Of a DNA stretch of 8,112 nucleotides, positions 1-8,112 are shown piece after piece. Made by a program: the position numbers and the translations under genes. Source of the DNA: a virus (Duplodnaviria > Heunggongvirae > Uroviricota > Caudoviricetes). Each line of letters opens with the position of its first letter. Positions within the stretch are counted from its first letter, which is position 1. The DNA lies in the IMG/VR virus record IMGVR_UViG_2563366903_000016; one strand, given 5' to 3'. The notes below the pieces were generated by a model. That model had not been told where the DNA came from and made no database searches. It saw only the letters and a program-made list of their open reading frames with translations.

Positions 1-165
1 GACGGTTTCTTCATCCAGTCTGGCATCAATGCGAATGTCCTCGTTGATGTAGCTCTGAATGGCCTGGCGTAATGCGGTTGGTTGTGCTCTGCCGAACGTT
101 TCAGGATCGATAACCGGTAGCGGTGCGTTCCATGGGTACGCCAGCTGTGCATTGCGGTCACTCAT
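1..165 (-). CDS. hypothetical protein, partial (C-terminus lies beyond the left window edge)
   Basis: ATG at 165-163 (minus) overlaps the TGA stop of the upstream gene (ATGA, 162-165). Frame stays open to position 1, 55 codons in window: MSDRNAQLAYPWNAPLPVIDPETFGRAQPTALRQAIQSYINEDIRIDARLDEETV. Absent from the ORF track, presumably because under 60 aa in-window. No family recognised. Confidence 0.45.
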   Translation of the reverse strand, partial: MSDRNAQLAYPWNAPLPVIDPETFGRAQPTALRQAIQSYINEDIRIDARLDEETV

Positions 166-578
166 GCGTCGTACTCCCCGGCAGTTGCCACCTGAAACGC
201 CGCGCGGTACAGCACGAGAAGGCGCTGGTATTCGCCGATAAAACCTTCTGCGGTGTATATACCTTTCACGGCCACGCTGTGGGTTGTCATTTCCAGAACC
301 AGCGCCATCTCTGATGACGACCAGCTGATGGCGGTACTGTCGGTGCCGTTGATGTGAAATAAACCCAGTCCATCACCATCACCTTTCACGTCCACGCGGT
401 AACGACCGTCCACGGTGAAGGAGAAATCCCCGTATGTGGTGACGCTGCGGGCAGCCTGTTTACAGGCGCGGCGGTAATAGTCGTGCCAGTTGTTCAGGCG
501 GGAAGCCAGCAGGGGATCCACCGCCCACATCCAGTTAAAGAAGTCCTGAATATCTGAAAGTCCCTTAACGCTCTTCAT
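162..578 (-). CDS. hypothetical protein (138 aa)
   Basis: ORF-track ORF with ATG at 578-576 and GGAGG 5 nt upstream (581-590 on + reads gaacctccgg). Stop overlaps the next start (ATGA). Protein-like composition; no family recognised. Confidence 0.6.
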   Translation of the reverse strand: MKSVKGLSDIQDFFNWMWAVDPLLASRLNNWHDYYRRACKQAARSVTTYGDFSFTVDGRYRVDVKGDGDGLGLFHINGTDSTAISWSSSEMALVLEMTTHSVAVKGIYTAEGFIGEYQRLLVLYRAAFQVATAGEYDA

Positions 579-646
579 GAGAACCTCCGGTAACAGATGT
601 GCGGAAGCCTCCCGCGTGCAGGTGTGGGATAGCTTCCGGATGTGGT

Positions 647-868
647 TTATCGGTGCTGGTTGATGAGGCTTTGCAGTTCTGCCAGGTCTTCGGCCAGATA
701 GCTGAAGACTGCCGCGTAATACCCGGCAGCGATACCGTCGTTAAGTCGGTGTAATACGTTTGACTGCATGATAAAGGCGACAGATGCAGCCCGATGGAGT
801 CTGCGGTTGATTTCGCTGCGGATGTGAAGACGCTCAGCGCGGGCGCGCTGTTGCTTGCGGTTTGCCAT
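647..868 (-). CDS. hypothetical small basic protein (73 aa), possibly nucleic-acid binding
   Basis: ATG at 868 preceded by GAAGAGG about 7 nt upstream. Arg/Lys-rich N-terminus (MANRKQQRARAERLHIRSEINRRLHR) then a hydrophobic/acidic helix-like C-terminus. Function is inferred from composition only. Confidence 0.5.
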   Translation of the reverse strand: MANRKQQRARAERLHIRSEINRRLHRAASVAFIMQSNVLHRLNDGIAAGYYAAVFSYLAEDLAELQSLINQHR

Positions 869-957
869 GGTGTGGCCTCTTCGTTTGTGAATTTTGAAAA
901 CTCACCAACCAGAGGTGGAAAACTCAGGGTGGCGAGACGTACAGGGTTTCCACAACC

Positions 958-993
958 GGCAAACGAAGAAACCGGCCCGACCGAAGTCGGCCC
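958..993 (-). terminator. candidate rho-independent terminator (minus strand)
   Basis: GC-rich stem 974-981 / 986-993 (8 bp, one mismatch) with a 4-nt loop that reads UUCG on the minus-strand RNA, followed on that strand by a U-rich stretch GGUUUCUUCGUUUG (958-973). Confidence 0.3.
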
Positions 994-1047
994 TGTACGC
1001 CCCGCCATAATTCTGACGCGAAAAAGACGTGGCGATACAGTACGCAC

Positions 1048-1089
1048 AAAAAAACCGCTGGCGCGGCTGTGCGCTTCGTTTGTCAGCGG
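1048..1089 (-). terminator. rho-independent terminator (minus strand)
   Basis: Inverted repeat CCGCTG (1055-1060) / CAGCGG (1084-1089) with extra internal GCGC pairing, followed immediately on the minus strand by seven U (A7 on + at 1048-1054). Confidence 0.45.
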
Positions 1090-1165
1090 GGTGGAAATCC
1101 CGGCACCCGTTTTATGAGGTGCAGCGGAAATGTAACCCGACACGACGAGCGCTGGCAAGCGGTTT

Positions 1166-1193: not shown

Positions 1194-1254
1194 CGCGGCG
1201 CAAAAATGGAATGCGCCGAGGGATAGCGGCGTTTATTAACAATGGAGGTTGTTT

Positions 1255-1722
1255 ATGCCTGTTGCTATGGAGCAAGCAGACAAGAAGATTTTTTTTCATC
1301 TGTGGTACAGCTATTGGCTGGAAGAGATGGTTTTCATACTCAGCAATAAAGCCGCTGCCATGTTGCGCGCCGGGGCGCTGATTGCTGCGGTATTGTCCTT
1401 TCTTCTGGTTGGTTTTCCCGTCCTGATGAGCCTTTGGGGGCTGGCGTTTTTTGTTTTTTCCTGGTTTTGCAGCAAGTGTGAATTCGTCGCCGAACTGGCG
1501 TGCTGGCAGAAACAGAGCTACCTTCGTCTGATTACGCAAAGGGATTTCATGAGCACTGAACGCCTGATTGAGCGCATTCTGTATCTGGAAGAAACGAACA
1601 GCGCATCCATGAAGGCGTTTGTCAGGCCCGCAAAAAACAAAGCGAGCGCATCTGTTGGTCTGTCTGCCAGCGAGCATTTGCGTTACTCCGAAAGGTTAAT
1701 CTGCTGGTTGTGCGGCGTCTGA
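1255..1722 (+). CDS. hypothetical membrane protein (155 aa), plus-strand accessory gene
   Basis: ATG at 1255 with GGAGG 6 nt upstream (track start 1249 is an in-frame TTG). Enterobacterial-looking codon usage (CTG, GCG, GAA, CGC rich). Long hydrophobic segment GALIAAVLSFLLVGFPVLMSLWGLAFFVFSWF suggests 1-2 transmembrane helices, then an ~80-aa soluble C-terminal region. Own promoter; 3' end overlaps the convergent gene 1683-2045 by 40 bp. The minus-strand 370-aa ORF over this region looks compositionally non-protein-like. Confidence 0.55.
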   Translation: MPVAMEQADKKIFFHLWYSYWLEEMVFILSNKAAAMLRAGALIAAVLSFLLVGFPVLMSLWGLAFFVFSWFCSKCEFVAELACWQKQSYLRLITQRDFMSTERLIERILYLEETNSASMKAFVRPAKNKASASVGLSASEHLRYSERLICWLCGV

Positions 1723-2521: not shown

Positions 2522-3502
2522 TTACGTACTGGCGGTGATTAACATCGCGCTGTAAGTTGCATCTTCCGTTACAGGTCCGCAGTCCGGGCAGTAGCCACCG
2601 CCATGGCGACCGCAGGCGTCGCACTGTCTCAGGGTGGCGATAACCTCCGGTGCTGATTCCCGGGTTCTTGCGCCAACGCTTCGTGGTGCCAGGATGGTGT
2701 TCATCCGGTAACCCTGATAAATGCGTCTGGTTTCCGGTGTGTCGGAATTGGAGATGGTGATGCTGGTCATGCCGCCCGTTTCCTGTGAAAGGCGGTCAAG
2801 CGCTGCCCTCAGACGAACGTGCTCGTCTTCATCGAATGGTTTTCCGTAGGCGGTAAAATTGTCCCGGCCACTGAATTGCAGGTAAGGGGGATCGCAGTAC
2901 ACGCAAAGCGTGTTGCCCATGCCGAACAGGTGACTGGCAGAGTTCAGCGTATCCTTAAAATCTGCGTGGATAAGCAGCGTTCGGGTGCTGTTTGCCTTGT
3001 CTGCAAATGCGCGGATTTCACGCTCAGGGAAGTAGGGCTTGCGGTAGCAGCCGAAAGGCACGTTAAAATCGCCTTTTCCGTTCACGCGGAACAAACTGTT
3101 AAAGCTGTGTCGGTTCAGGTACAAAAACATGGCGGCCAGTCGCAGTTCACGGCGGTCGCTTATTCCCGTTCTGCTGTTCAGGAAGGCATGATTCTCTGCG
3201 TTAAAGGTTTCGCGAATGATGAGATAGTCACCCCTGTTGTTGTGGTTCAGGAACAGGGTTTTCGCCTCGTCGATCAGGCTGTCGGTGTTGTCCCTGGCTT
3301 GCCGGTAGAAATTAATCAGCGCACCATTGGAATCACCCAGGATGTAACGCTTGTAACTGGTGTTCATGAATACCGATGCGCCGCCCACGAACGGCTCAAC
3401 CAGACAGTCGGCTTCTGGCAGGTGCGCCTTCAGTGTGTTCATGATGCGGCTTTTTCCGCCCACCCATTTCAGTGGCGTACCGGATAACAGTTCTTTGCTC
3501 AT
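2522..3502 (-). CDS. dam: DNA adenine (N6) methyltransferase, Dam family, with C-terminal Cys4 zinc-ribbon-like extension
   Basis: Dam-family signature blocks: LKWVGGKS, LVEPFVGGASVF (SAM-binding FxGxG), FLYLNR, FNVPFGCYRKPYFPE, catalytic VYCDPPY, NFTAY. Extra C-terminal tail carries CDACGRHGGGYCPDCG (CxxC-x8-CxxC). AAAGAGG RBS 7 nt upstream of ATG 3502; start overlaps the stop of the upstream ORF (ATGA). Confidence 0.9.
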   Translation of the reverse strand: MSKELLSGTPLKWVGGKSRIMNTLKAHLPEADCLVEPFVGGASVFMNTSYKRYILGDSNGALINFYRQARDNTDSLIDEAKTLFLNHNNRGDYLIIRETFNAENHAFLNSRTGISDRRELRLAAMFLYLNRHSFNSLFRVNGKGDFNVPFGCYRKPYFPEREIRAFADKANSTRTLLIHADFKDTLNSASHLFGMGNTLCVYCDPPYLQFSGRDNFTAYGKPFDEDEHVRLRAALDRLSQETGGMTSITISNSDTPETRRIYQGYRMNTILAPRSVGARTRESAPEVIATLRQCDACGRHGGGYCPDCGPVTEDATYSAMLITAST

Positions 3503-3726
3503 AACGCGGCCTCTTTGTTATAGTTTTCGTGCGTTAATAAATCCCATGACGCCCCGTTGTTTTTGCTCAGCAATCGCCAGCGAAAACCGATTCTTATTAC
3601 CAGGTAGTCGTGGGGTTTTATGCGTGAAAAATTCCGCACGCCGTCGCGGAATAAACGCAGCGATGCGCGGGCTTTTCTTTCCACGTTCAGGGGGGGGCAG
3701 CAACACACATTCAGGATGGCGACCAT
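3499..3726 (-). CDS. hypothetical small protein (75 aa) containing a C8/G8 homopolymer, translationally coupled to dam
   Basis: ATG at 3726 with strong GAGGTGA RBS 6 nt upstream, 9 nt after the exonuclease stop. Stop TGA overlaps the dam ATG (3499-3502). Codons 10-13 read through the homopolymer (TGC CCC CCC CTG). A second long open frame (3518-3706) also crosses the tract. Confidence 0.5.
   Translation of the reverse strand: MVAILNVCCCPPLNVERKARASLRLFRDGVRNFSRIKPHDYLVIRIGFRWRLLSKNNGASWDLLTHENYNKEAAL
3690..3697. repeat. G8/C8 homopolymeric tract (candidate slipped-strand site)
   Basis: Eight consecutive G on the plus strand (3690-3697), inside the 5' part of CDS 3499-3726. Confidence 0.9.
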
Positions 3727-6217: not shown

Positions 6218-6643
6218 TTAAGCTGCTTTTTTACTGATACGTTTATTCCGTGAACCAGCTGCTGGCTTAAATAAAAAAAGTCGGTTTTCCCATTCGTGCC
6301 ATTCTTGCGGTGCGTTTTCAGTGAGTCGATCGCAGGCTTCATCCCATGCTTTCCGGTTGATGTAAAGTTCGGCGTTTCCGCCAGGCTTGAGAGGGTCCGC
6401 CATGTACACAGCGGGTAATTTCCCTGCTTTTGCCATGCTCACGATGGCGTCAACGGTCTTGCCGATATACATCGCAAACCCTTCTTTTGACAGGAGATGA
6501 GAAGGGTTTTGTGAAAGCCTGATTTCTTGGCGTTCAGGGGCTTTGCGCCCGGTCTTTTGGTGTGCGGTTTCTGGCGCATCTGTCAACTGATCGCACTGTG
6601 TTTCGGCAGGCGATTCAGGCGCGTTTTGAGTGACTTCTTGCAT
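6218..6643 (-). CDS. cox: Cox-like excisionase/transcriptional regulator with an N-terminal acidic extension
   Basis: C-terminal ~85 aa (EGFAMYIGKTVDAIVSMAKAGKLPAVYMADP ... AELYINRKAWDE) match my recollection of P2 Cox (EFAKLIGKSTGAVRRMIDKGKLPVIDMTDP ... AGEYWVYLPAWN). ATG at 6643 has GGAGGA 5 nt upstream; an internal ATG at 6472 also has an SD (GAAGGG) but would remove conserved residues. Divergent from the repressor gene. Confidence 0.65.
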   Translation of the reverse strand: MQEVTQNAPESPAETQCDQLTDAPETAHQKTGRKAPERQEIRLSQNPSHLLSKEGFAMYIGKTVDAIVSMAKAGKLPAVYMADPLKPGGNAELYINRKAWDEACDRLTENAPQEWHEWENRLFLFKPAAGSRNKRISKKAA

Positions 6644-6750
6644 CTGGTATCCTCCGTTATTGGTGCTATTTCTATTTAGCACCAGTTAGAGCCGCCTAGA
6701 TTGTCTCTAGGTGTGTTTGTTGATGTATAAACTAAGAGAGTTAACTTACT
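6644..6750. promoter_or_regulatory. divergent cox/C promoter-operator (switch) region
   Basis: 107-bp intergenic region between divergent cox and C. Contains palindrome TGGTGCTA-n8-TAGCACCA (6661-6684) and palindrome CTAGA-n5-TCTAG (6696-6710). Candidate -10 TATAAA (6726-6731) for the repressor transcript. Exact promoters were not resolved. Confidence 0.5.
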
Positions 6751-7050
6751 ATGTCAACTAACGTAGGTGAAAAAATTAGAATCATGCGTAAGTCTGAAAT
6801 GCTTACACAAGAAAAAATGGCTGAAATTACAGGGCTCACGGTAGCGGCCCTGCGTCAATATGAACAGGGGAGAAATGAGCCAAATCTTGAATCCACAAAA
6901 AAGCTGCTCAAGTCTCCCGTCTTCCGTAAATACCGTGACTGGTTTTTGTTCGATGAGGTCGAACCAAAGGCCGGGCAGGTGGTACCGGCTCTCGCACACA
7001 TTGGGCGAAGCGAATCGGAATCACCCCACTCCGGCAAGAAGACTGGTTAA
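6751..7050 (+). CDS. C: P2 C-type immunity repressor (99 aa)
   Basis: Length and sequence match my recollection of P2 C: EKIRIMRKSE, ITGLTVAALRQYEQGR (HTH region), and C-terminal PALAHIGRSESESPHSGKKTG against P2 PALAHFGQNETTSPHSGQKTG. Sits immediately upstream of int on the same strand, as in P2. Confidence 0.85.
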   Translation: MSTNVGEKIRIMRKSEMLTQEKMAEITGLTVAALRQYEQGRNEPNLESTKKLLKSPVFRKYRDWFLFDEVEPKAGQVVPALAHIGRSESESPHSGKKTG

Positions 7051-7116
7051 CGGTCCATCTGGCCTTTATTTCTCAAAATTGTGATCAAGATGATGTTTTC
7101 ATTGGGGGGCTTCCTT

Positions 7117-8112
7117 ATGTCGATTAAGAAGCTCGCTGATGGCAAATACTGTGTGGACGTGCGGCCTGCTGGATCTGAAGGAAGAAGATTTCGGCGGCGA
7201 TTTCCTACCCGTGGTGAAGCGGCGATGTATGAACGCCATGTTCTGACGCATTATCACGATAAGGACTGGGTCGAAAAACCTATTGAACGTAAAGCGTTAA
7301 GCGATCTTCTGGAACTGTGGTGGGTGTACCACGGTAAGAATCATCGTTATGGCGCGATGAATCGGGTCAGAATTGAAGCGGTTCTTCGTGATATGCAAGA
7401 GCTTGGTATTAACAGAAGTGACCACTTAACCCGAAAAAATATTATCAGATATCGCCTTGAATTAATGAATCGCGGAATTAAGCAGTCAACGGTAAATCGT
7501 TATTGTGCAATGATGAGCGGTTTCTTTGAAAAGCTGATTGATGTTGAAGAGTTTGTGGGTGATAACCCGTTTCACGAGATACGCAAGCTAACAATTAATC
7601 AGCCGGAAATGGCTTATCTTGCACATGATGATATTCCCAGGCTAACCGCACTTTTATCTGGCGATAATCTTAAGGCTGTATTGTTAAGCCTGGCTACAGG
7701 CGGGCGCTGGAGTGAAGTTGCCAATATTAAAGGTGAACACATAATTGGTGGGAAGGTTATTTTTATGGAGACAAAGAATGGATCGCGGCGGGTTATTCCT
7801 ATAGCTAAAGATCTTGAATCTCTGATTAAAGTCAAAGCGACGGGAAGATTAATGAACCCCAGTTATGCGATAGTCAGAAGTGCAATAAGGACTGTGCGGC
7901 CTGATTTACCAGTCGGTCAGTCTGTGCATGTTTTACGGCACACATTCGCAACTCATTTCATGATTAATGGAGGGAACATTATTACCCTTCAGCGTATTTT
8001 AGGGCACAGCACAATTCAGCAAACAATGACCTATGCGCACTTTGCGCCTGATTATCTCCAGGACGCGGTAAGGTTCAATCCGGTTGCGGAGTTGTCCAGA
8101 TTTTGCCCATAA
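7117..8112 (+). CDS. int: tyrosine site-specific integrase (P2 Int-like)
   Basis: N-terminus MSIKKLADGKYCVDVRP resembles the P2 Int N-terminus. C-terminal catalytic region has HVLRHTFATHF (His and Arg box) and the tyrosine in TMTYAHF. ATG 7117 chosen over the track GTG 7081 by homology. Complete ORF; TAA stop at 8110-8112 is the last codon of the window. Confidence 0.9.
   Translation: MSIKKLADGKYCVDVRPAGSEGRRFRRRFPTRGEAAMYERHVLTHYHDKDWVEKPIERKALSDLLELWWVYHGKNHRYGAMNRVRIEAVLRDMQELGINRSDHLTRKNIIRYRLELMNRGIKQSTVNRYCAMMSGFFEKLIDVEEFVGDNPFHEIRKLTINQPEMAYLAHDDIPRLTALLSGDNLKAVLLSLATGGRWSEVANIKGEHIIGGKVIFMETKNGSRRVIPIAKDLESLIKVKATGRLMNPSYAIVRSAIRTVRPDLPVGQSVHVLRHTFATHFMINGGNIITLQRILGHSTIQQTMTYAHFAPDYLQDAVRFNPVAELSRFCP

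What the first reader, a model, noticed from the sequence alone, without database searches (positions are those of the whole stretch)
1..868. Left-hand three-gene block of unknown function with its own regulation
Genes 647-868 (basic 73 aa), 162-578 (138 aa) and the truncated gene at 1-165 lie beyond the terminators and match nothing I recognise. The last two are translationally coupled (ATGA). The basic small protein followed by a larger partner could be a regulator-effector pair or the start of the replication module; the sequence alone cannot decide.
Basis: inference. Interest (0 to 1): 0.4.

Follow-up and report, generated by a model that had tools for sequence, protein, structure and literature searches.

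The report
RNA-controlled antirepressor and replication operon
The "unknown three-gene block" is the start of the replication operon of a P2-like (P88-type) E. coli prophage: a P4 epsilon-like antirepressor, a P2 Orf83-like protein and the gpA nickase, preceded by the IsrK/C4 antisense-RNA immunity switch already known from P4, P1 and Gifsy-1. It is an ordinary member of a known kind.

Summary
The three minus-strand ORFs and the ATGA overlap are real, but they are not unknowns. The gene cut at base 1 is the N-terminus of an 837-aa P2 gpA-type replication endonuclease. The 138-aa gene is a divergent, N-terminally extended relative of DUF5405 (P2 Orf83, the ORF that overlaps P2 gene A). The basic 73-aa gene is a homologue of the P4 epsilon antirepressor.

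The "terminators" upstream are two Rfam RNA genes on the same strand: isrK (1048-1122) and C4 antisense RNA (925-1012). A promoter with conserved hexamers lies at 1129-1158.

Two exposed boxes of C4 are complementary to two sites. One lies inside isrK; the other covers the Shine-Dalgarno sequence of the 73-aa gene. Across 68 distinct related leaders these pairings hold in 97-99% of cells, and 12 of 16-17 pairs show compensatory changes. There are 7 a' and 17 b' types, in 30 combinations.

The layout matches P4 (seqA, CI RNA, seqC, epsilon ... replication gene) and resembles P1 c4-icd-ant. The most likely mechanism is that C4 RNA blocks translation of the antirepressor, and by polarity of Orf83-like and gpA. 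When it escapes, the antirepressor inactivates the phage's P2-type C repressor.

Verdict: new member of a known kind, modest interest.

The parts
1129..1158 (-). Sigma-70-like promoter TTGCCA-18 nt-TACATT, ending 7 nt before the 5' end of the isrK match. It is the likely own promoter of the module, positionally analogous to P4 PLE and Gifsy-1 PisrK.
   Evidence: Promoter scan. In 76 related leaders both hexamers are 99-100% conserved, while about ten spacer positions match the window in only 13-25% of leaders. No transcript mapping has been done.
1048..1122 (-). isrK / P4 seqA-like leader RNA. It holds box a1 (1091-1097, UUUCCAC, in a hairpin loop) and box b1 (1074-1082, CAAACGAAG, in a single-stranded linker). 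It ends in an intrinsic terminator: stem 1053-1068 plus a U7 tract.
   Evidence: Rfam RF01394 at 64.1 bits (gathering score 50), model 1-77. Terminator scan. Complementarity to C4. Covariation with C4: 99.3% of cells paired, 12 of 16 pairs compensatory.
925..1012 (-). C4 / P4 CI-type antisense RNA. Box b' (nt 44-53, window 960-969) lies in the loop of hairpin 2. Box a' (nt 60-66, window 947-953) lies in the single-stranded junction.
   Evidence: Rfam RF01695 at 82.1 bits (gathering score 45), model 1-87. The minimum-free-energy fold reproduces the family structure with both boxes unpaired.
915..921 (-). Target box a2 (UUUCCAC) in the 5' UTR of the 73-aa gene, complementary to C4 a'.
   Evidence: Exact 7-nt complementarity. 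99.6% of cells paired and 5 of 7 pairs compensatory across 68 leaders.
876..887 (-). Target box b2 (CAAACGAAGA, 878-887; extendable by two G-U pairs to 876). It overlaps the Shine-Dalgarno AAGAGG, 8 nt before the ATG at 868.
   Evidence: Exact 10-nt complementarity to C4 nt 44-53. 95.7% of cells paired and 7 of 10 pairs compensatory.
647..868 (-). P4 epsilon (E)-like antirepressor gene, 73 aa, pI 10.8.
   Evidence: Pfam PF25738 E=2e-6, 27.9 bits against a cut-off of 27. BLASTP to P4 epsilon: 34% over 50 aa, E=1e-8, shared FSYL.ED motif. 63% identical to P88 gp14 'derepression protein'. PHROG 3688 E=1e-31.
162..578 (-). Orf83/DUF5405-like gene, 138 aa, function unknown. It has its own GGAGG ribosome-binding site, and its stop overlaps the gpA start (ATGA).
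   Evidence: PHROG 3237 E=7e-52. The family is narrow: 22 hits among 1.84 billion representatives. Family members reach PF17399 (P0040 29 bits, P0041 21.6, cut-off 21.6). hhalign to P2 Orf83: probability 57%, E=1e-4. Best BFVD fold hit is a DUF5405 protein. The window protein itself has no Pfam hit.
1..165 (-). First 55 codons of an 837-aa gpA-type replication endonuclease (rolling-circle nickase); the rest lies left of the window.
   Evidence: In the 99.2%-identical locus L001 the gene runs 6652-9165. PHROG 91 'nicking at origin of replication' E=2.8e-234. 32% identical to P2 A, E=1e-79, although the first ~100 aa are not in the aligned part.
6751..7050 (+). P2-type C immunity repressor, the inferred target of the 73-aa antirepressor. 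It lies outside the finding and is listed because the proposed mechanism needs it.
   Evidence: 45% identical to P2 C over all 99 aa, E=1e-37. P4 E binds P2 C (PMC2995052). The link to the 73-aa protein is an inference; the only support is a partial Mantel r=0.28.

Best explanation
The block is the antirepressor-plus-replication operon of a P88-type (Xuanwuvirus, P2-like) prophage. It is guarded by a P4/P1-type antisense-RNA immunity switch.

Proposed sequence of events:
1. A constitutive promoter (1129-1158) starts a leader whose first 75 nt form the IsrK/seqA-like RNA. Many transcripts stop at its intrinsic terminator.
2. Read-through transcripts contain the C4/CI-like RNA (925-1012), which is cut out and accumulates.
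3. The two exposed boxes of C4 pair with a2 and b2 in the 5' UTR of the same operon. This covers the Shine-Dalgarno sequence of the epsilon-like gene, so that gene is not translated.
4. By translational coupling and Rho polarity, the Orf83-like gene and the gpA nickase stay off as well. This gives a second layer of immunity besides the C repressor.
5. The identical box pair inside IsrK (a1/b1) competes for C4, so the ratio of target sites to C4 sets the switch.
6. When C4 is outnumbered, the epsilon-like protein is made and, like P4 E, sequesters the phage's P2-type C repressor. That opens the early promoter, and gpA nicks the origin to start replication.

Shown here: the identity of the two RNAs, the pairing and its covariation, the overlap of b2 with the ribosome-binding site, the homologies of the three proteins, the conserved gene order and the conserved promoter hexamers.

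Inferred: processing of C4, translational block and polarity, binding of the 73-aa protein to C, and the trigger for induction.
For: RNA identity and pairing:
- Rfam isrK and C4 lie on the gene strand immediately upstream, both well above their gathering scores.
- C4 nt 44-53 and 60-66 are exactly complementary to 878-887 plus 915-921, and to 1074-1082 plus 1091-1097. Both boxes are unpaired in the C4 fold.
- Covariation over 68 distinct leaders: 97.3% and 99.3% of cells paired, against ~70% in shuffles and 26-50% when slid. 12 of 17 and 12 of 16 pairs carry compensatory changes.
- There are 7 a' types and 17 b' types in 30 combinations. Cognate box duplexes average -19.3 kcal/mol, against -4.6 for non-cognate.
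- b2 overlaps the Shine-Dalgarno sequence.

Same anatomy elsewhere:
- P4 has the same layout: isrK and C4 hits upstream of epsilon, boxes at the same C4 positions, and b2 over the SD of the first ORF.

Proteins and context:
- Epsilon homology, gpA, Orf83/DUF5405 link, P2-type C repressor in cis.
- Conserved synteny and conserved promoter hexamers.

Literature:
- P4 CI RNA prevents expression of the replication genes by pairing with seqA and seqC, and IsrK is the seqA homologue (PMC4825925, PMC3632133).
- P4 E is an antirepressor that binds P2 C (PMC2995052).
- The P2-like prophage Sp13 of O157 Sakai carries an epsilon-like gene and, unlike P2, is mitomycin-inducible (PMC2669165).
- P88 itself was obtained by mitomycin induction (PMC5285337).

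Co-variation of epsilon with C:
- Epsilon divergence tracks C divergence after controlling for its neighbour gpA (partial Mantel r=0.28, p=0.0003). gpA does not track C once epsilon is controlled for (r=-0.01).
Against: - No transcript, processing or protein-binding data exist for this phage type.
- The Pfam hit of the 73-aa protein is only just above its cut-off (27.9 against 27).
- One epsilon cluster occurs with up to nine different C clusters at 85% identity. Any specificity for C is therefore loose, and Mantel tests are inflated by shared ancestry.
- No LexA box lies near the module, so the link to SOS or mitomycin induction is unexplained.
- In P4 the RNA is described as acting through transcription termination, not purely through translation.
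Confidence: 0.7

Rival explanations
1. The parts are the same, but C4 acts mainly as a transcription-termination factor, as described for P4. Pairing with a1/b1 and a2/b2 on the nascent transcript would cause premature termination before the epsilon-like gene, and the overlap of b2 with the ribosome-binding site would be secondary.
For: The P4 literature states that CI RNA leads to premature termination by pairing with seqA and seqC (PMC4825925 discussion). The upstream copy a1/b1 covaries as tightly as the downstream one although it has no ribosome-binding site to block. An intrinsic terminator sits right after b1.
Against: b2 covers the Shine-Dalgarno sequence in this phage and in P4, and anti-SD/SD complementarity is kept in all b types. 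No intrinsic terminator lies between C4 and the 73-aa gene or between the genes. The two mechanisms are not mutually exclusive, because untranslated mRNA invites Rho.
Confidence: 0.2
2. The 73-aa protein does not act on the phage's own C repressor. It would derepress other resident P2-like prophages, or have a role in replication alongside Orf83-like and gpA.
For: Epsilon clusters combine with many C clusters. The gene is always the first of the operon that ends in gpA. In P4 the homologue acts on a foreign repressor (PMC2995052).
Against: All associated repressors are of the P2 C family, to which P4 E binds. Epsilon-C co-variation exceeds that of the flanking genes. P2-like prophages carrying epsilon-like genes are inducible, whereas P2 is not (PMC2669165, PMC5285337).
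Confidence: 0.08
3. The block is a toxin-antitoxin or anti-phage defence pair: a small basic regulator plus a larger effector, as the first reader's 'regulator-effector' wording suggests.
For: The size pattern and tight spacing fit, and prophages often carry such cargo.
Against: No PADLOC match for any of the proteins. All three have homologues in core P2/P4 regulation and replication functions. The position and order are invariant across loci, not cargo-like.
Confidence: 0.02

Closest known systems
Satellite phage P4 immunity region and left operon (PLE, seqA, CI RNA, seqC, kil/eta, epsilon, orf151, cnr, alpha)
   Same: - isrK-like (seqA) and C4-like (CI) RNAs lie in the same order upstream of an epsilon homologue.
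- The interaction boxes sit at the same positions of the RNA, nt 44-52/53 and 60-66.
- The downstream b box covers the SD of the first ORF after the RNA.
- The operon ends in the element's replication initiator.
   Different: - The replication protein here is the gpA rolling-circle nickase, not the alpha primase-helicase.
- The epsilon-like gene sits directly under b2; there are no kil/eta genes.
- The middle gene is Orf83/DUF5405-like and unrelated to orf151.
- The polarity of the a box is inverted.
- The element is a complete P2-like phage with its own C repressor, not a satellite.
Phage P1/P7 immI operon (c4, icd, ant)
   Same: It belongs to the same Rfam C4 family. An antisense RNA is made from the operon it controls, with two short boxes complementary to sites upstream and downstream. 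The downstream site masks the ribosome-binding site of the first ORF, to which an antirepressor is coupled. Differences in box sequence give heteroimmunity. This comparison rests on my own knowledge of the P1 literature; PMC3632133 confirms only that P1/P7 use a structurally similar system.
   Different: The antirepressor (Ant) and its target (C1) are unrelated to epsilon and C. No replication gene is in the operon. P1 was not analysed here.
Gifsy-1 isrK-orf45(STnc1160)-anrP locus of Salmonella
   Same: The IsrK RNA has a leaky intrinsic terminator. A processed ~80-nt RNA lies downstream and shares complementarity with IsrK. An antirepressor gene is activated when IsrK is supplied in trans (PMC4825925).
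   Different: AnrP is unrelated to epsilon. The downstream RNA region is also read as a 45-codon ORF coupled to anrP. The host phage is lambdoid, and there are no replication genes downstream.
Phage P2 orf83-A
   Same: A DUF5405 protein gene overlaps the start of gene A, and the C repressor is of the same family.
   Different: P2 has no IsrK/C4 RNAs in its int-to-cos region and no epsilon gene. There, orf83-A simply continue the early operon, and P2 is not inducible (PMC2669165).
Phage P88 (Xuanwuvirus) and prophage Sp13 of E. coli O157 Sakai
   Same: P88 has the same isrK, C4, derepression-protein, small-ORF, gpA order. An epsilon-like gene in a P2-like prophage, and its possible role in mitomycin induction, was already noted for Sp13 (PMC2669165).
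   Different: The window's phage has a different allele of the middle gene (22% identity to P88 gp15) and different b-box specificity. Among the papers I could search, I found none that describes the RNA switch in these phages.

Membership tests
C4 antisense RNA (Rfam RF01695; P1 C4 / P4 CI) | Full-length match to the covariance model above the gathering score | tested here: met
   82.1 bits against 45, model 1-87 of 87, E=1.7e-15.
C4 antisense RNA (Rfam RF01695; P1 C4 / P4 CI) | Two exposed boxes complementary to target sites upstream and downstream on the same transcript, the downstream one at a ribosome-binding site | tested here: met
   Exact complementarity. Boxes lie in a loop and a junction. 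Covariation: 97-99% of cells paired, 12 compensatory pairs at each site. b2 overlaps AAGAGG.
C4 antisense RNA (Rfam RF01695; P1 C4 / P4 CI) | Excised from the leader transcript (RNase P and other nucleases) and represses the downstream genes | not testable with these tools
   Needs Northern blot, 5'/3' mapping and reporter fusions.
isrK / P4 seqA RNA (Rfam RF01394) | Match above the gathering score, ending in an intrinsic terminator, placed just upstream of C4 | tested here: met
   64.1 bits against 50. Stem plus U7 tract at 1046-1068, 99-100% conserved except one stem position. 35 nt upstream of C4.
P4 epsilon (E) antirepressor / Pfam PF25738 'Derepression' | Sequence membership | tested here: met
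   27.9 bits against a cut-off of 27, which is marginal. BLASTP to P4 epsilon E=1e-8. 22 columns are invariant in the three-way alignment.
P4 epsilon (E) antirepressor / Pfam PF25738 'Derepression' | Binds and inactivates a P2-type C repressor | not testable with these tools
   Only indirect evidence: a P2-type C repressor is present and the partial Mantel r is 0.28.
DUF5405 (PF17399; P2 Orf83) | Sequence membership of the 138-aa protein | tested here: inconclusive
   The window protein has no hit. Family relatives P0040 (29 bits) and P0041 (21.6) reach the 21.6 cut-off. hhalign probability is 57%. Foldseek probability is 0.99 but E=0.043.
DUF5405 (PF17399; P2 Orf83) | Position immediately upstream of, and overlapping, gene A | tested here: met
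   ATGA overlap here. In P2, orf83 overlaps A.
P2 gpA replication endonuclease | Homology of the full-length protein to P2 A | tested here: met
   L001 protein: 32% identity, E=1e-79. PHROG 91 E=2.8e-234. Only the first 55 codons are in the window, and that part lies in an N-terminal extension not aligned to P2 A.
Anti-phage defence or toxin-antitoxin system | Match to a known defence or TA protein model | tested here: not met
   No PADLOC hit for any of the proteins.

The most novel reading that the evidence does not exclude
The two-box RNA code may act between elements as well as within one phage. In P4-like satellites the a box has the opposite polarity. The satellite CI RNA carries UUUCCAC, which is the window's target box, and the satellite targets carry GUGGAAA, which is the window's C4 box. 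The helper-type C4 RNA and the satellite CI RNA could therefore pair with each other and titrate one another, coupling derepression of a P88-type prophage and a resident P4-like satellite at the RNA level. The 7 x 17 combinatorial box repertoire would then reflect an arms race over who can silence or awaken whom.
Probability: 0.1. Interest if true: 0.65.

Novelty: new member of a known kind. Interest (0 to 1): 0.3.

Why it matters
It removes an "unknown" from the scan. The block is the regulated entry into replication of a common E. coli prophage type; DNA matching the first 1300 bases occurs in 1228 of 5426 complete genomes.

It also offers a plausible reason why P88-type P2-like prophages are inducible while P2 is not: they carry an epsilon-type antirepressor under RNA control.

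The leader set is a clean natural covariation data set for a trans-acting RNA-RNA interaction, with 30 specificity combinations. It could be used to study heteroimmunity, or mined for orthogonal RNA repressor/target pairs.

None of this changes the known principle.

Tried and rejected
- **Homologues of the 138-aa protein.** tblastn against 50,697 phage records found nothing. The word-based protein search returned almost only E. coli proteins.
- **P4 orf151 as its counterpart.** No similarity by BLASTP or hhalign.
- **NCBIfam.** No family named any of the three proteins.
- **LexA box** (CTGT-N8-ACAG, up to 1 mismatch) near the module: none. The single window match at 1750 is what chance predicts.
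- **Defence or TA reading:** no PADLOC hits.
- **Species-representative genome scan** for epsilon relatives: only 4 loci.
- **A mistyped DNA pattern** cost one viral scan.
- **Co-occurrence of complementary a-box types** in genomes carrying both a P88-type prophage and a P4-like satellite. The capped locus lists appeared to share no genome identifiers by eye, so this was left untested.
- **Reading the primary P4 paper** (PMC176756) failed because it is not held.

Full report
**1. What the window is**

The ORF map and family scans show a P2-like prophage end.
- An integrase (7081-8112, +) and a C-type repressor (6751-7050, +) lie at the right end.
- A leftward early operon begins with cox (6218-6682, -). 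It runs through an exonuclease, a Dam methylase and a DUF4406 gene to 1683.

Megablast against complete E. coli genomes finds the first 1300 bases in 1228 of 5426 genomes. The best match is 99.2% identical, in strain DETEC-S792. There the prophage lies next to chpSB/ppa and continues leftward into P2-type packaging and capsid genes. The closest named phage is P88 (Xuanwuvirus, Peduoviridae).

**2. Checking the observation**

The three minus-strand reading frames are at the stated coordinates.
- The 73-aa product is basic (pI 10.8).
- The 138-aa gene has a GGAGG ribosome-binding site.
- Its stop overlaps the next start as ATGA.

RefSeq annotates all three genes in the near-identical prophage.

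**3. Identity of the three genes**

*Truncated gene.* It is the start of an 837-aa "replication endonuclease".
- The full protein matches PHROG 91 "nicking at origin of replication" at E=2.8e-234.
- It is 32% identical to P2 gpA (E=1e-79). Its first ~100 residues, which include everything in the window, are an extension that does not align to P2 A.

*73-aa protein.*
- It hits Pfam PF25738 "Derepression" just above threshold (27.9 against 27 bits).
- It aligns to the P4 epsilon antirepressor at 34% over 50 residues (E=1e-8), sharing a FSYL.ED motif.
- It is 63% identical to P88 gp14, annotated "derepression protein".

*138-aa protein.*
- It belongs to PHROG 3237, of unknown function.
- The family is very narrow: 22 hits among 1.84 billion cluster representatives.
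- It has no Pfam hit of its own. Family members reach DUF5405 (P0040 at 29 bits and P0041 at 21.6, cut-off 21.6).
- A profile comparison with P2 Orf83 gives probability 57%, E=1e-4, over the C-terminal 50 residues.
- The best viral fold match of a pLDDT-79 model is a DUF5405 protein.
- P2 Orf83 is the DUF5405 ORF that overlaps the start of P2 gene A, so position and distant similarity agree.

**4. What the "terminators" are**

Rfam places two RNA genes on the gene strand directly upstream:
- isrK at 1048-1122 (64.1 bits, gathering score 50);
- C4 antisense RNA at 925-1012 (82.1 bits, gathering score 45).

P88 and P4 give the same pair of hits upstream of their epsilon genes. [quoted passage not shown] P2 has neither.

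A sigma-70-like promoter (TTGCCA-18-TACATT, 1158-1129) ends 7 nt before the isrK 5' end. In 76 related leaders both hexamers are 99-100% conserved, while about ten spacer positions match the window in only 13-25% of leaders. isrK ends in a stem plus U7 terminator.

**5. The RNA-RNA interaction**

C4 nt 44-53 (UCUUCGUUUG) lie in the loop of hairpin 2. Nt 60-66 (GUGGAAA) lie in the single-stranded junction. Both are exactly complementary to two sites:
- CAAACGAAGA at 887-878 plus UUUCCAC at 921-915;
- CAAACGAAG at 1082-1074 plus UUUCCAC at 1097-1091, inside isrK.

The downstream b site overlaps the AAGAGG Shine-Dalgarno sequence, 8 nt before the ATG of the 73-aa gene.

I fetched 80 IMG/VR loci encoding relatives of the 73-aa protein. 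All carry the leader, and nearly all sequence variation in it is concentrated in these six boxes.

Results on 68 distinct leaders:

| Pairing | Cells paired | Shuffled | Slid | Compensatory pairs | Covariation score |
|---|---|---|---|---|---|
| C4 with downstream a2/b2 | 97.3% | ~70% | 39-50% | 12 of 17 | 0.643 vs 0.133 |
| C4 with upstream a1/b1 | 99.3% | ~70% | 26-50% | 12 of 16 | 0.684 vs 0.129 |

There are 7 a' types and 17 b' types in 30 combinations. Cognate boxes form 16.5 of 17 pairs on average, against 11.7 for non-cognate. The corresponding duplex energies are -19.3 and -4.6 kcal/mol. A few loci are mismatched recombinants (L037, L031, L012). The window itself is fully self-consistent.

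**6. Conserved organisation**

In every locus with enough downstream sequence the order is isrK, C4, epsilon-like, one of about three alleles of the Orf83-like gene, then gpA.

P4 has the same plan with its own replication gene. Its boxes sit at the same C4 positions, and its downstream b box covers the AGGAGG of the first ORF after CI.

**7. Mechanism**

From the P4, P1 and Gifsy-1 precedents, the most likely mechanism is as follows.
1. The leader promoter is constitutively active.
2. C4 is excised from read-through transcripts.
3. C4 pairs with a2/b2 and prevents translation of the antirepressor.
4. The Orf83-like gene and gpA are silenced by coupling and polarity.
5. The a1/b1 copy in the short IsrK RNA competes for C4. 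This matches the activating effect of IsrK in trans in Gifsy-1 (PMC4825925).
6. Once made, the epsilon-like protein would inactivate the phage's C repressor. That repressor is 45% identical to P2 C, the known target of P4 E (PMC2995052).

Three further observations fit this.
- P88 was isolated by mitomycin induction (PMC5285337).
- The P2-like prophage Sp13, which carries an epsilon-like gene, is inducible although P2 is not (PMC2669165).
- In a partial Mantel test, epsilon divergence tracks C divergence after controlling for gpA (r=0.28, p=0.0003), whereas gpA does not track C.

The last point is weak evidence. Epsilon clusters combine with many C clusters, and Mantel tests are inflated by relatedness.

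Two things are missing: a LexA box, and any experimental data on this phage type. Whether C4 acts mainly on translation or on termination cannot be decided from sequence.

**8. Comparison and novelty**

The RNAs are members of their Rfam families. The proteins are members, or distant relatives, of known P4/P2 families. An epsilon-like gene in a P2-like prophage was reported in 2009 (PMC2669165). Among the papers I could search, I found none that describes the IsrK/C4 switch in P88-type phages or its combinatorial box repertoire. I therefore file it as a new member of a known kind, with modest interest.

**9. Side observation**

In 80 P4-like satellite loci the same covarying box system is present, with 3 a' and 7 b' types. 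The a box has inverted polarity there:
- the satellite CI box UUUCCAC equals the window's target box;
- the satellite target GUGGAAA equals the window's C4 box.

Two of the three satellite a cores recur among the seven helper-type cores. My rough chance estimate for that is about 0.002, assuming uniform 4-mers. The two antisense RNAs could therefore pair with each other. Whether this reflects ancestry or cross-talk is untested.

Noticed in passing
L167-L246 (P4-like satellites) compared with window 947-953, 915-921 and 1091-1097: The a box has opposite polarity in satellites and in P88-type phages. The satellite CI RNA carries UUUCCAC or UUCUCAC (the helper's target sequences), and the satellite targets carry GUGGAAA or GUGAGAA (the helper's C4 box or a near match). 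The b boxes keep the same polarity in both and share no types.
   Followed up: partly
L037, L031 and L012 (leaders upstream of the epsilon-like gene): Rare leaders have mismatched boxes. L037 has the window's a1/b1 in isrK but another specificity in C4 and a2/b2. In L031 the b' box matches neither b1 nor b2. In L012 the a1 box differs from a2. They look like recombinants between immunity types and might be derepressed or defective.
   Followed up: no
window 929-1117 (+): RefSeq and GenBank annotate a 62-aa 'hypothetical protein' here (P88 gp13; called 'transcriptional regulator' in Xuanwuvirus P884B11). It lies exactly antisense across C4 and isrK. Given the RNA covariation, it is probably a spurious call.
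   Followed up: partly
window 1249-1722 (+): A 157-aa protein with hydrophobic, membrane-like segments (PHROG 6315, unknown function) is encoded convergently between the end of the early operon and the isrK promoter. P88 has a different, minus-strand 'lipoprotein' gene at this spot, so it looks like a variable cargo slot.
   Followed up: no
window 1214-1231 (-): A GC-rich hairpin followed by CAUUCCAUUUUUG lies just upstream of the isrK promoter. It could terminate transcripts coming from the early promoter and so insulate the module.
   Followed up: no
window 3499-3726 (-): The 75-aa ORF between the exonuclease and the Dam methylase is annotated 'ParE family toxin-like protein' in one RefSeq genome and 'hypothetical' in another. 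No partner antitoxin is evident.
   Followed up: no
L001 6652-9165 (gpA; window 1-165 is its start): This gpA has an N-terminal extension of about 100 residues that does not align with P2 A. Its function is unknown.
   Followed up: no
L087-L089 (MAG contigs labelled Clostridiales, Ferruginibacter and 'bacterium'): Short contigs in metagenome-assembled genomes of unrelated taxa encode 34%-identical epsilon relatives, at the same level as P4 epsilon. They may be mis-binned enterobacterial satellite DNA.
   Followed up: no
L091-L166 (long loci): C/int against the rest of the early region: C and integrase divergence are tightly correlated with each other (Mantel r=0.83) but almost uncorrelated with DUF4761 and gpA (r about 0.1). 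DUF4761 and gpA are in turn correlated with each other (r=0.84). The immunity/integration cassette is therefore exchanged as a unit, independently of the replication region.
   Followed up: partly
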